Assembly: GCA_965367815.1 (NCBI GenBank)
Contig: CBDUKN010000008.1
Span: 28,237 to 92,236, forward strand
DNA: 64,000 bases
Reading direction: 5' to 3'
Source: an uncultured Thermoprotei archaeon
Lineage (GTDB): Archaea > Thermoproteota > Thermoprotei > Thermofilales > B15-G2
Part shown: positions 2,385 through 4,107 of the stretch, one piece after another
How the letters are laid out: every line of letters begins with the position of its first letter
Position numbering within the stretch: the first letter of the stretch is position 1
Program-made: the position numbers and the translations under genes
The notes under the pieces: generated by a model
The model's input: only the letters and a program-made list of their open reading frames with translations
Told to the model about the DNA's origin: nothing
Database searches by the model: none

Positions 2385-2504
2385 GGGACCTCTTTGACCC
2401 CCTTTCGGCTCTAGGCCGGCTGGCCTTTCATTGCACCTAGGGGTCAGGCGGGTTACCCCTATTTGGGCTAGTGGGGTGTCTCCCTATCGGGTAAAGAACT
2501 TAAT
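2385..2504 (-). ncRNA. Candidate omega-RNA (reRNA) scaffold / right-end structure of the tnpB element
   Basis: A GC-rich block with many short stems starts immediately after the tnpB stop codon (2505-2507) and ends at the ADH stop codon. Examples on the minus strand are GGGGT..ACCCC and GGCC-AGCC-GGCC. The position matches where TnpB guide RNAs are encoded. No transcript evidence. Confidence 0.4.
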
Positions 2505-3938
2505 TTATTTTAGTTTATTTAAAGACTTTTTCTCAACCCATTTTTGCTCTTTAATCAAGTATATGTATGTCCTAGGATAATTAAGCAGTCTCTTCAATAC
2601 TGCTCTATCCAAAGAAACACTAGTATTATTCCTCATTATGTTATATGCTGCACTTAAATCCGCGTTAAATTGTCCACATTTCTTGCACACTACTAGTCCC
2701 CTGTAAGGACGCTGAACCCTCTGACCACACACTGGGCAAACACTACTAGTATTCTCTTCACTCACCTCAACTACCTCAATACCCCTGACTTCACACTGTC
2801 TTCTCAAAGAATCAATTATTTGACGCGGAGCGAAAAATCCTCTAAGCAGTTCTCGAGTACGCTTCGACACAACTTCTTCAACTAAGTCTTCTCTACTAAC
2901 ACAATAGCATACTGAATTCCCTATGTAGACAACTGAAACACCTTTTTCTTCAAAAAACTCTGCAATAAGCCTAGCCATTTGATTAATCGCTTTTTTATGA
3001 ATCTCTTTTGCTTTTTTCCTAAACCTCCCTGCTTTCTTTAAATACCATTTATATTTACTGAAAAACTCTTTCTCCTTCTCCTTATCATTGTTTTCAGAAT
3101 GTTTAACTGCCTCCCAGAAATACTGGTGAGCAATACGATTCCTACGCCTAGCCAATTTCTCGTTTTTAAGCCAGTAAGCCCTTAAGGTACCGCTTTTAAA
3201 AAGCATTGAAAAAGCCTCGCCACTATCACTGACCCCAATTAAAGCAATTAAATTCCTTGCACCAATGTCTACGGCAGCAATACCACTACCCCGAAGCCTC
3301 GGAACCTTCAAGGAAACACTGAAAGCAAAGTACCACTTGTTATTTTTCCTAAATATCTCTGCCTTATTTTTATTGATGCAGTATTCTCCTAGAATCAAGT
3401 AGTCATCTGTTAAATAGTGTCTCAACTTTACATCAGGATATTTTAATCCCTTAATGTAGAATACTAATCCTTCTTTAAGCTCTGGAACCCATTTAATTTT
3501 TCCTCTAACCTCTAGTGAAAACCATTTTCTATTTGAAGAAAACTCTATTTTCTCAGCAATCCACTTGTCTCCTTCTCTTACAGCATATACACGGTACTGT
3601 CCATTATGCAGAATCACTGGAATATTTCTGAATTCCGGTGGCTTAGCCTTAAACCCTCTTCTTTTAACAGAAATATAGCTTTCCCATGCCTCAAGAACTT
3701 TTCTTGAAGCCTCATTAGCAGCAGTACTAGAAGCATTATTTCTCCGCAGAACTCTATAGACTTCTAAAACATTAGGAAACCTATGATTTACTCGATAATA
3801 CTGTTTAACGAAACTATTTGCTACATCAAAGTACTTCTTGAATTCTTTCCTAAGCTCTTCCAAAAACCTCTCTAATTCCTCATCTACCTCTATTCTTAAA
3901 ACATTCGTCCTAATTATCTCAACAACCTCCCGCCTCAC
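2505..3938 (-). CDS. tnpB: TnpB (IS200/IS605 OrfB-type, RNA-guided endonuclease family)
   Basis: 477 aa with a GTG start. RuvC-I is AAVDIGARNLIAL, RuvC-II is SREDLVEE, the zinc ribbon is CPVCGQ...CKKCGQ, and RuvC-III is NADLSAAYNI. Confidence 0.9.
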   Translation of the reverse strand: MRREVVEIIRTNVLRIEVDEELERFLEELRKEFKKYFDVANSFVKQYYRVNHRFPNVLEVYRVLRRNNASSTAANEASRKVLEAWESYISVKRRGFKAKPPEFRNIPVILHNGQYRVYAVREGDKWIAEKIEFSSNRKWFSLEVRGKIKWVPELKEGLVFYIKGLKYPDVKLRHYLTDDYLILGEYCINKNKAEIFRKNNKWYFAFSVSLKVPRLRGSGIAAVDIGARNLIALIGVSDSGEAFSMLFKSGTLRAYWLKNEKLARRRNRIAHQYFWEAVKHSENNDKEKEKEFFSKYKWYLKKAGRFRKKAKEIHKKAINQMARLIAEFFEEKGVSVVYIGNSVCYCVSREDLVEEVVSKRTRELLRGFFAPRQIIDSLRRQCEVRGIEVVEVSEENTSSVCPVCGQRVQRPYRGLVVCKKCGQFNADLSAAYNIMRNNTSVSLDRAVLKRLLNYPRTYIYLIKEQKWVEKKSLNKLK

Positions 3939-3942
3939 AGAA

Positions 3943-3978
3943 CACCCCCATCTCCCTCATATCATAGTGGAGGGGGTG
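3943..3978. repeat. Imperfect palindrome CACCCCCATCTCC...GGAGGGGGTG abutting the tnpB start codon (possible left-end hairpin)
   Basis: CACCCCC (3943-3949) is complementary to GGGGGTG (3972-3978), and the inner CTCC pairs with GGAG. Subterminal hairpins are typical of IS200/IS605 ends. Confidence 0.5.
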
Positions 3979-4107
3979 CCCTGCGGGACGGGAGGCATTA
4001 GTATATTTGAAGCATTTTAAAGCAATATACTTCAATTAAACCTACTAATCACAAGAACATTTCTGTTAAATACTGTATGTTGTTGGATTGATGTTTGCTT
4101 AATGCTG

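What the first reader, a model, noticed from the sequence alone, without database searches (positions are those of the whole stretch)
2385..4094. Intact TnpB element with a GC-rich structured 3' flank (candidate omega-RNA) inserted right at the ADH stop codon
SEEN: The 477-aa TnpB has all three RuvC motifs (AVDIG, REDL, NADLSAAYNI) and a CxxC..CxxC ribbon. There is no tnpA. Directly after its stop codon lie 120 nt of GC-rich, stem-forming sequence (2385-2504) that ends exactly at the stop codon of the alcohol dehydrogenase. An imperfect palindrome (3943-3978) abuts the GTG start. ESTABLISHED: TnpB proteins are RNA-guided nucleases. Their guide RNA is transcribed from the 3' end of tnpB and the right end of the IS, and the guide segment comes from the DNA just beyond that end. 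INFERENCE: 2385-2504 (minus strand), probably extending into the tnpB 3' coding region, is the scaffold. The guide would then be antisense to the last codons of the ADH gene. Hyperthermophilic archaeal TnpB/omega-RNA pairs are little characterised and would be of practical interest.
Basis: partly seen in the sequence, partly recalled or inferred. Interest (0 to 1): 0.55.

Follow-up and report, generated by a model that had tools for sequence, protein, structure and literature searches.

The report
Archaeal TnpB with RNAs at both ends
This is a TnpB (RNA-guided nuclease) element from a heat-loving archaeon whose conserved 3' RNA block looks like a normal guide-RNA scaffold, but which also carries a large, conserved, structured RNA upstream of the gene that is complementary to that scaffold, so the guide RNA may be made of two pieces.

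Summary
The core of the finding holds. ORF 2505-3938 (-) is an intact 477-aa TnpB/Cas12f-fold protein. The GC-rich block after its stop codon is a conserved, covarying, sense-strand RNA structure. It is found next to every homologue, in 8 different genomic contexts.

Several details need correcting:
- Conservation stops sharply at 2396 (…GAAAGGGGGUC|), not at the ADH stop codon (2382-2384). Bases 2385-2395 are flank and would be the first bases of the guide.
- 'REDL' is not the RuvC-II motif. The canonical Glu position is Gly340 in all relatives. The invariant Glu is E394, 7 residues before the zinc finger. This is the 'rearranged RuvC-II / pro-Fanzor' type.
- The palindrome is a 70-nt hairpin (3926-3995) that contains the GTG start rather than abutting it.

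A roughly 330-nt structured RNA (about 4440-4112, same strand, with its own TATA box) travels with tnpB. It has 93 predicted pairs, 22 of them with compensatory changes. Its 3' end and an internal segment are complementary to the 3' block (19-26 nt and 14 nt).

The unit spans about 4564-2396. No tnpA is present and the left end is ragged.

Most likely this is an ωRNA-guided TnpB. It is possibly a two-part, tracrRNA-like guide.

The parts
2376..2395 (-). Predicted guide segment: the first ~20 nt of flank 3' of the scaffold (AAAGAGGTCCCTTAGAATAT). It covers 11 intergenic bases plus the antisense of the ADH stop and last codons. The length is assumed.
   Evidence: This sequence differs in each of the 8 distinct loci immediately after the conserved ...GGGGTC. 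Its role as a guide is inferred from the known TnpB/ωRNA architecture.
2396..2504 (-). 3' (RE) RNA block, the candidate ωRNA scaffold. Its parts are: hairpin H1 (CCC-GAUA-GGG); helix H2 (GCCC/GGGU, with a variable insert); the invariant single strand GGUAACCCGCCUGACCCC (2457-2440); closing helix H3 (GACCCCU 2445-2439 with GGGGGUC 2402-2396); and a K-turn-like hairpin (2434-2408).
   Evidence: It is conserved in all 16 loci that reach it (nhmmer E 3e-30 to 3e-7). Hand-parsed helices in 9 sequences give 180 Watson-Crick pairs, 13 G.U pairs and 2 mismatches, and the distal stem has 6 different paired sequences. RNAalifold finds compensatory pairs. There is no Rfam match.
2505..3938 (-). tnpB, 477 aa, GTG start. 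It has RuvC-I D224, Gly340 at the canonical RuvC-II position, invariant E394 seven residues before the zinc finger (C401/C404, C418/C421), and RuvC-III D427.
3926..3995 (-). 70-nt hairpin at the predicted 5' end of the tnpB mRNA. The GTG start codon (3938-3936) lies inside its 3' arm.
   Evidence: There are 30 consensus pairs in 7 loci. Four have compensatory changes, and there are many G.U pairs on the sense strand. The self-complementarity is seen.
3996..4111 (-). Conserved AT-rich spacer with TATA-like boxes (TTTAAAAT 4021-4014, AAATATAC 4008-4001), about 26 nt upstream of the hairpin start.
   Evidence: It is conserved even in the most diverged locus, L004. The promoter role is inferred from archaeal TATA spacing.
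4112..4440 (-). Upstream (LE) structured RNA of about 330 nt. Its 3' end (4131-4113, CCUGGGGGCCAGGCGGGUU) and an internal segment (4345-4332, GUGGGGUGUCUCCC) are complementary to the 3' block.
   Evidence: It has 93 pairs with 95.9% of cells paired, against 40-57% when partners are slid. 22 pairs change on both sides, against 1-5 when slid. G.U pairs place it on the tnpB-sense strand. The LE-RE inverted repeats are conserved in the window, L001, L010 and L013. There is no Rfam match.
4441..4564 (-). Conserved AT-rich left-end region, with a TATA box (TTATATAT, 4469-4462) about 26 nt upstream of GAUGACCCAC (4439). The left boundary of the unit is at 4564 (GAAAGAAGTAG...).
   Evidence: A 99.2%-identical strain (L024) diverges from the window exactly at 4565/4564. 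The same GAAAGA(A/T)AGTAG start follows a different left flank in L019 and L021.

Best explanation
Window 4564-2396 (minus strand, about 2.17 kb) is a TnpB-only OMEGA-type unit. It belongs to a very small lineage known only from hydrothermal-sediment metagenomes and Thermoprotei MAGs.

The protein is a TnpB with the 'rearranged' RuvC site (Asp224 / Glu394 / Asp427, with Gly at the canonical Glu position).

The 103-109 nt GC-rich block after the stop codon (2504-2396) is the guide-RNA (ωRNA) scaffold. Transcription continues into the flank, so the next ~16-20 nt (2395 downwards) would serve as the guide. That guide would direct TnpB to a copy of this ADH-proximal site that lacks the element.

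The unit also encodes a separately promoted ~330-nt structured RNA upstream of tnpB. This RNA can pair with the scaffold. A 70-nt hairpin sequesters the tnpB start codon.

Shown: homology and fold of the protein; conservation, covariation and strand of both RNAs; the sharp right boundary; the LE-RE complementarity.

Inferred: transcription, RNP formation, guide use, and nuclease activity.
For: Protein:
- Pfam PF07282 is above cut-off, and there is a full-length match to NCBIfam guided_TnpB.
- Foldseek best hits are Cas12f, ISFba1/ISDra2 TnpB and Fanzor2.
- D224, E394 and D427 are invariant in an 18-sequence alignment.
- E394 lies 7 residues before the zinc finger. This is the position described for Fanzor and the RIIr/pro-Fanzor TnpBs (PMC13565253; PMC10691335).

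3' block:
- It is present downstream of every homologue that reaches that far.
- Eight distinct downstream flanks all begin right after ...GGGGTC.
- Helices are kept by compensatory changes, with G.U pairs on the sense strand.

Mobility or turnover:
- Flanking genes are not syntenic.
- A 99%-identical strain lacks the unit.
- A mosaic allele sits at the same ADH site (L002/L011).
Against: - There are no RNA-seq or activity data.
- No tnpA is present, and there is no second copy in the 64-kb window.
- The left end is ragged among relatives (L001, L010 and the window/L018-L021 differ). That is unlike a freshly transposed IS200/IS605.
- The NCBIfam score (84.9) is below its cut-off of 100.
- No TAM could be derived.
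- Single-sequence folding energy is not exceptional.
- The scaffold is short (about 105 nt) and lies wholly outside the ORF. This leaves room for the upstream RNA to be an obligatory second part.
Confidence: 0.7

Rival explanations
1. Two-part guide RNA. The upstream ~330-nt RNA acts like a tracrRNA, and the 3' block acts like a crRNA repeat plus guide. The upstream RNA's 3' end (4131-4113) pairs with the 3' block (2454-2436). Its GACCCC just upstream pairs with the terminal GGGGG(UC) next to the guide. Alternatively, in one long transcript the tnpB ORF is looped out of a single ~440-nt scaffold.
For: - The 19-26 nt and 14-15 nt LE-RE complementarities are the top long-range inverted repeats. 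They are conserved in the window, L001, L010 and L013.
- Co-folding and joint RNAalifold choose the LE:RE helix (21 bp). It forms a three-way junction with the K-turn hairpin, and the guide lies directly 3' of it.
- The changes present are wobble-compatible (G-C to G.U).
- There is a matched 1-nt deletion in GUGU(C)UCCC and GGGA(G)ACAC in L003/L013.
- All intact tnpB copies keep the full upstream RNA. The four copies with deletions of its 3' half all have broken tnpB genes.
- The closest solved folds are Cas12f enzymes, which use tracrRNA.
Against: - The pairing segments are almost invariant, so there is essentially no true covariation for the intermolecular helices.
- The window itself has a C.A mismatch, and L002 has two.
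- The 3' block can close its own helix H3 without the upstream RNA.
- The deletions in L018-L021 also remove the tnpB promoter and hairpin, so the co-loss is ambiguous.
- The two complementarities are in 'parallel order', which is topologically awkward if both form at once.
Confidence: 0.3
2. Cis-regulatory reading. The upstream RNA is a long 5' leader or sRNA, and its pairing with the 3' block regulates expression. It could switch between a translatable tnpB mRNA and a mature ωRNA, or mask the scaffold. This would work together with the start-codon hairpin and be comparable in logic to the intron/ωRNA conflict in IStrons.
For: - The start codon is buried in a conserved 30-bp hairpin.
- The LE hairpin GACCCC-AGCCU-GGGGGUC has the same helix sequence as the 3' block's closing helix, so the two can swap partners.
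- There are two promoter-like TATA boxes, so two transcript classes are plausible (coordinates).
Against: - A 330-nt, multi-helix, strongly covarying RNA is far more elaborate than needed for antisense-type masking.
- There are no expression data.
Confidence: 0.2
3. DNA-level reading. The GC-rich blocks and their inverted repeats are transposon-end structures recognised by a transposase supplied in trans, and they are not functional RNAs.
For: - IS200/IS605 ends carry subterminal hairpins (established knowledge).
- Inverted repeats flank the gene.
- The unit is found in non-syntenic contexts.
Against: - The repeats are internal, about 430 nt from the left end and 40 nt from the right end, not terminal.
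- Helices tolerate many G.U pairs, which would be A.C mismatches on the other strand.
- The left end is ragged.
- No transposase is nearby in any locus.
- The family is single-copy where contigs are long.
Confidence: 0.1

Closest known systems
TnpB/ωRNA (OMEGA) systems of IS200/IS605 and IS607 elements, e.g. ISDra2 and ISFba1 TnpB
   Same: - Same protein fold (Foldseek 8iaz E 3.7e-10, 8h1j E 4.4e-9).
- Zinc finger between RuvC-II and RuvC-III.
- Structured non-coding RNA at the 3' end of the gene.
- Conservation stops abruptly at the element/flank junction, where the guide would begin.
   Different: - No tnpA is present.
- The scaffold lies entirely after the stop codon rather than overlapping the ORF.
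- The RuvC-II Glu is relocated.
- About 625 nt of conserved non-coding sequence lies upstream, including a 330-nt structured RNA complementary to the scaffold.
- The left end is ragged.
Catalytically rearranged TnpB lineages (RIIr clades of Altae-Tran et al. 2023, PMC10691335; 'TnpB2/pro-Fanzor', PMC13565253) and Fanzor
   Same: - Gly replaces the canonical RuvC-II Glu.
- An invariant Glu sits just upstream of the zinc finger (E394, C401).
- The RuvC-III motif is of the NADxN type.
   Different: Which named RIIr branch it belongs to was not determined. The nearest non-family relatives are only about 30% identical. Only 304 of 1.84 billion representatives score E<=1e-3.
Cas12f (type V-F) with tracrRNA:crRNA, and the 'TranC' transposon-CRISPR intermediates (Jin et al. 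2025, cited in PMC13565253)
   Same: - These are the best structural matches (8dzj, 8j1j, 9nzs; E about 1e-14).
- The layout is formally like tracrRNA:crRNA: a long structured RNA whose 3' end pairs with the 5' part of the guide-bearing RNA, and a second short pairing next to the guide. That comparison with Cas12f R:AR-1/R:AR-2 rests on my own knowledge.
   Different: - No CRISPR array or cas1/2/4 genes were noticed next to the gene. No dedicated CRISPR-array search was run.
- There is a single guide fixed by the flank.
- The pairing is untested.
IStrons (group I intron + IS605/IS607 with tnpB; 10.1101/2023.11.20.567912, PMC13521648)
   Same: A large structured RNA lies at the 5' end of the element, the ORF is in the middle, and there is a functional 3' RNA end that interacts or competes with the 5' RNA.
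   Different: - There is no match to the Rfam group I or group II intron models, even at E<=10.
- The element ends in ...GUC rather than an ωG.
- It is archaeal.

Membership tests
TnpB (RNA-guided nuclease, OMEGA) | RuvC-like domain with three acidic catalytic residues (D-E-D) | tested here: met
   D224, E394 and D427 are invariant in the 18-sequence alignment. The Glu is in the relocated position, 7 residues before the zinc finger, with Gly340 at the canonical site. The geometry was not inspected because no coordinates are returned.
TnpB (RNA-guided nuclease, OMEGA) | Profile-HMM membership | tested here: inconclusive
   Pfam PF07282 scores 52.6 bits against a cut-off of 26.3, so it is met. 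NCBIfam NF040570 guided_TnpB aligns over 14-436 but scores 84.9, below its cut-off of 100.
TnpB (RNA-guided nuclease, OMEGA) | TnpB/Cas12f fold (WED-REC-RuvC-ZnF) | tested here: met
   The AF2 model has pLDDT 83.1 and pTM 0.74. Foldseek gives E 5e-15 (Cas12f), 3.7e-10 (ISFba1 TnpB) and 4.6e-10 (Fanzor2).
TnpB (RNA-guided nuclease, OMEGA) | Conserved structured RNA at the 3' end, with a sharp scaffold/guide boundary at the element end | tested here: met
   Eight distinct flanks start right after ...GGGGTC. Helices covary.
TnpB (RNA-guided nuclease, OMEGA) | ωRNA expressed and bound; TAM-dependent DNA cleavage | not testable with these tools
   This needs RNA-seq and biochemistry.
IS200/IS605 insertion sequence | Y1 TnpA (or IS607 serine recombinase) in the element | tested here: not met
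   There is no such ORF in the ORF list for 1-7000, and none among the Pfam-annotated neighbours of the related loci.
IS200/IS605 insertion sequence | Two sharply defined ends shared by all copies, and insertion 3' of a fixed 4-5 nt target (TAM) | tested here: inconclusive
   The right end is sharp. The left end is at 4564 in the window, L018 and L020, and at the equivalent point in L019 and L021, but it is shorter in L010 and L001. Left flanks end in TCT, CCT or TTT, which are too few independent sites to call a TAM.
IS200/IS605 insertion sequence | Multiple copies per genome / recent mobility | tested here: not met
   There is no second copy of any module in the 64-kb window or on long contigs. 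The whole genome was not available. Presence/absence polymorphism between 99%-identical strains does exist.
Type V CRISPR-Cas (Cas12f-like) | CRISPR array and/or adaptation genes next to the effector | not tested
   No tandem-repeat or direct-repeat search was run. Self-BLAST of 2300-4750 against the window found no repeated unit. The inverted-repeat scan and the ORF list showed nothing resembling an array or cas1/2/4. This is only incidental evidence of absence.
IStron / self-splicing intron host of tnpB | Group I (or II) intron core recognisable by covariance model | tested here: not met
   Rfam 15 scans at the gathering threshold and at E<=10 over 2000-5000, and at E<=1 over loci L001-L006, give no intron hit.

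The most novel reading that the evidence does not exclude
This small Thermoprotei TnpB lineage uses a naturally bipartite guide RNA. A separately transcribed ~330-nt upstream RNA base-pairs, through a 19-26 nt 'anti-repeat' and a short second helix, with a ~105-nt 3' RNA that carries the guide. Equivalently, the tnpB ORF may sit inside a loop of a ~440-nt scaffold. Either way this would be a transposon-borne TnpB that already has the tracrRNA:crRNA-type split thought to have produced type V CRISPR systems. It would also be in a hyperthermophile, with K-turn-like motifs that could recruit L7Ae.
Probability: 0.3. Interest if true: 0.8.

Novelty: new variant of a known kind. Interest (0 to 1): 0.58.

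Why it matters
If only the 3' block is the guide scaffold, this is one more TnpB/ωRNA pair. It is thermostable and of the little-studied rearranged-RuvC type, which gives it some practical interest.

The upstream RNA is the unusual part. No described TnpB family, as far as my literature searches and own knowledge go, carries a large, independently promoted, covarying RNA upstream of tnpB that is complementary to its ωRNA. Two more distant relatives that I checked lack it.

If the two RNAs work together, the locus would be a natural example of a split guide in a transposon TnpB. That bears directly on how tracrRNA/crRNA arose from ωRNA. If instead the upstream RNA regulates the ωRNA or tnpB, it would be a new kind of control circuit for these elements in archaea. 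Both ideas can be tested directly with RNA-seq and a reconstituted RNP.

Tried and rejected
- **Known RNA families.** Rfam found no family for the 3' block, the upstream RNA, U2 or the hairpin. The only hits were chance miRNA-like matches to the hairpin.
- **Folding energy.** Single-sequence folding energy of the 3' block is not significant, so I relied on comparative data instead.
- **Second copy in the window.** BLASTN, TBLASTN and nhmmer found none.
- **Genome collection.** The scan gave one related locus only, and the window's own genome is not in it.
- **Viral contigs.** There was no relative, and the one DNA-motif hit was a chance match in a GC-rich phage.
- **Synteny.** I considered synteny as the reason for the upstream conservation and rejected it, because flanking genes differ.
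- **U1/U2 as part of the unit.** I first counted U1/U2 (4840-4565) as part of the unit. I then found them without the unit in a 99%-identical strain (L024), so I moved the left boundary to 4564.
- **Bulge-helix-bulge splice motif.** By eye, from the co-folds, the LE:RE duplex has no such motif. It is an uninterrupted helix. No dedicated motif search was run.
- **Group I/II intron.** No covariance-model hit, and the end nucleotides do not fit.
- **Empty ADH site.** Both contigs carrying the exact ADH protein also carry the element, so no TAM or target-site check was possible.
- **Distant relatives.** P0081 and P0158 have no upstream RNA and no LE-RE repeats. P0016 lies on a contig too short to tell.
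Full report
**The locus**

The window is 38.7% GC, with isolated GC-rich islands at tRNAs and a few other places. This pattern is typical of hyperthermophiles, where structured RNAs stand out. 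The closest relatives of the gene come from hydrothermal metagenomes and from MAGs labelled Thermoprotei archaeon.

ORF 2505-3938 (-) encodes 477 aa. The Fe-ADH gene (1242-2384, +) converges on it and is complete, with Pfam ADH_Fe_C covering residues 195-379 of 380.

**The protein**

- Pfam Cas12f1-like_TNB is above its cut-off. NCBIfam guided_TnpB aligns end to end but scores below its cut-off.
- The family is tiny. There are six close homologues (66-89% identity) among 5.8 billion clusters. Only 304 of 1.84 billion representatives score E<=1e-3, and the next relatives are about 30% identical.
- In an alignment with 14 of those distant relatives, the invariant residues include D224 (AVDIG), G340, E394 and D427 (NADLS).
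- G340 sits where canonical TnpB has the RuvC-II glutamate (…VVYIGN…). E394 lies 7 residues before the first zinc-finger cysteine.
- This is the arrangement described for Fanzor and for the 'RIIr / TnpB2 / pro-Fanzor' prokaryotic lineages (PMC13565253; PMC10691335).
- The model (pLDDT 83, pTM 0.74) matches Cas12f, Cas12m, ISFba1/ISDra2 TnpB and Fanzor2.

**The 3' block**

I recovered DNA for the homologues: L001-L006 and L008-L021 from the metagenome scan.

- The GC-rich block follows the stop codon in every locus that reaches that far (nhmmer).
- There are eight distinct elements. Their downstream sequences are unrelated to each other, and in each one conservation ends at …GAAAG(A)GGGGUC.
- In the window that end is 2396. 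Bases 2385-2395 are therefore flank, not element.
- The block has a common architecture:
  - hairpin CCC-GAUA-GGG;
  - helix GCCC/GGGU, with a variable and sometimes extended insert;
  - an invariant single strand GGUAACCCGCCUGACCCC;
  - a closing helix GACCCC(U/C)/GGGGGUC that ends at the last base of the element;
  - inside that closing helix, a hairpin with a kink-turn-like signature (GC-AAU-GA … GA-GC).
- The distal stem of that hairpin has six different but always paired sequences.
- Over nine sequences my hand-parsed helices contain 180 Watson-Crick pairs, 13 G.U pairs and 2 mismatches. RNAalifold independently finds compensatory pairs.
- The G.U pairs put the structure on the tnpB-sense strand.

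This is what an ωRNA scaffold with a flank-derived guide looks like. Expression was not tested.

**The 5' side**

The upstream region turned out to be conserved as well. Reading the minus strand from left to right, the unit contains:

1. An AT-rich left-end region (4564-4441), with a TATA box (4469-4462) about 26 nt before GAUGACCCAC (4439).
2. A GC-rich RNA of about 330 nt (about 4440-4112).
3. A strongly conserved AT-rich spacer with TATA-like boxes (4111-3996).
4. A 70-nt hairpin (3995-3926) whose 3' arm contains the GTG start.

For the 330-nt RNA, an 8-sequence alignment gives 93 consensus pairs:
- 95.9% of cells are paired, against 40-57% when partners are slid by 1-3 columns.
- 22 pairs change on both sides, against 1-5 when slid.
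- 0 of 500 shuffles reach the observed covariation score.
- Numerous G.U pairs fix the strand.

The start-codon hairpin has 30 conserved pairs. Four are compensatory, and there are many G.U pairs. Rfam has no family for any of these.

**Link between the two ends**

The top long-range inverted repeats in the unit are:
- 4131-4113 with 2454-2436, which is 19 nt here and 22-26 nt in L013, L010 and L001;
- 4345-4332 with 2484-2471, which is 14-15 nt.

Both are conserved in the relatives examined.

Co-folding, and a joint RNAalifold of upstream RNA plus 3' block, select a 21-bp intermolecular helix. They also pair the upstream GACCCC with the terminal GGGGG next to the guide. This gives a three-way junction with the K-turn hairpin.

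The segments are nearly invariant, so this is conserved complementarity rather than proven covariation. The few changes are wobble-compatible. A matched one-base deletion occurs in L003/L013, but the internal partner within the upstream RNA changes in the same way.

Copies with intact tnpB (window, L001, L003/L013, L010/L014) keep the full upstream RNA. Four copies (L018-L021) have independent deletions between short direct repeats. These deletions remove the 3' half of the upstream RNA, the spacer and the hairpin, and all four copies have frameshifted or internally deleted tnpB.

Two more distant relatives (about 23-28% identity) have no upstream RNA and no such repeats.

**Boundaries and mobility**

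- The right end is sharp.
- The left boundary is 4564. A contig 99.2% identical to the window from 11592 down to 4565 (L024) continues into a helicase gene instead of the unit. The same GAAAGA(A/T)AGTAG start follows a different left flank in L019 and L021.
- L010 and L001 are shorter on the left.
- Flanking genes are not syntenic among loci.
- L002 and L011 are a mosaic allele at the same ADH site. The last 45-48 ADH residues are 100% identical and most of TnpB is 88% identical, but the N-terminal 110 residues are only 53% identical. This indicates recombination between family members.
- No tnpA and no second copy were found.
- No empty ADH-side site was available, so no TAM could be derived.

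**Interpretation**

Most likely (about 0.7) this is a TnpB whose ωRNA scaffold is 2504-2396. Its guide would start at 2395 and be antisense to the 11 intergenic bases and the end of the ADH gene.

The upstream RNA certainly belongs to the unit, but its role is open. The candidates are:
- a second, tracrRNA-like subunit of the guide, or a scaffold with the ORF looped out (about 0.3);
- a regulatory leader or sRNA acting on the ωRNA and tnpB (about 0.2);
- DNA-level end structures (about 0.1).

These roles are not mutually exclusive with the ωRNA reading of the 3' block, so the figures need not sum to one.

Relative to known systems this is a TnpB/ωRNA system of the rearranged-RuvC type with an additional, previously undescribed upstream RNA partner. 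I therefore rate it as a new variant of a known kind.

Noticed in passing
window 4585-4700 (minus strand), with 4706-4840 upstream of it: A further GC-rich conserved module ('U2') folds as a ~105-nt long hairpin with many G.U pairs on the tnpB-sense strand. It lies between the S3Ae gene and the TnpB unit. It occurs next to the degenerate TnpB copies L018-L021, and also without any TnpB unit in strain L024. There is no significant Rfam match. The only overlapping hit is a chance-level sRNA162 match at 4680-4887 (25.7 bits against a gathering score of 78, E 0.094). Function is unknown.
   Followed up: partly
window 4564/4565; L024:7030: There is a strain-level breakpoint. A 123-kb contig that is 99.2% identical to the window from 11592 to 4565 continues into helicase and DUF87 genes that are absent from the window, instead of the TnpB unit and ADH. 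Several assemblies of the window's own strain break at 4445, 4702 and 2903. This suggests population heterogeneity or rearrangement at this unit.
   Followed up: partly
L002 and L011 (same ADH-proximal site as the window): This is a mosaic allele. The upstream RNA and the 3' block are nearly identical to the window. The spacer, the hairpin and the first ~110 TnpB residues resemble other family members (53% identity), and the gene call is shortened. This looks like gene conversion between elements.
   Followed up: partly
L018-L021 (e.g. L019:1700-1730, L018:2975-2995): Independent deletions between short direct repeats (GATGGGGG…, GGGGTGT…) fuse the 5' half of the upstream RNA directly to the tnpB start. 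All four of these tnpB genes are frameshifted or internally deleted.
   Followed up: yes
window 51812-51911 (+), 39799-39893 (-), 46836-46920 (-): There are three tRNA genes by Rfam. The one at 51812-51911 is missed by ARAGORN, and the tRNA-Trp at 39799-39893 shows a 24-nt insert after the anticodon loop. These are probably archaeal introns.
   Followed up: no
window 9189-9299, 27827-27984, 28916-28996, 34335-34419, 50931-51015, 53098-53316: These are other GC-rich islands (at least 56% GC in 80-nt windows) in the AT-rich window, with no Rfam hit at gathering thresholds. They are possible unannotated structured RNAs, or locally GC-rich coding sequence.
   Followed up: no
window 2526-2533 (minus strand, inside the last tnpB codons): A consensus-like TATA box (TTTAAATA) lies about 25-30 nt upstream of the start of the conserved 3' block, so the candidate ωRNA might have its own promoter. 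The spacing is not conserved in all relatives.
   Followed up: partly
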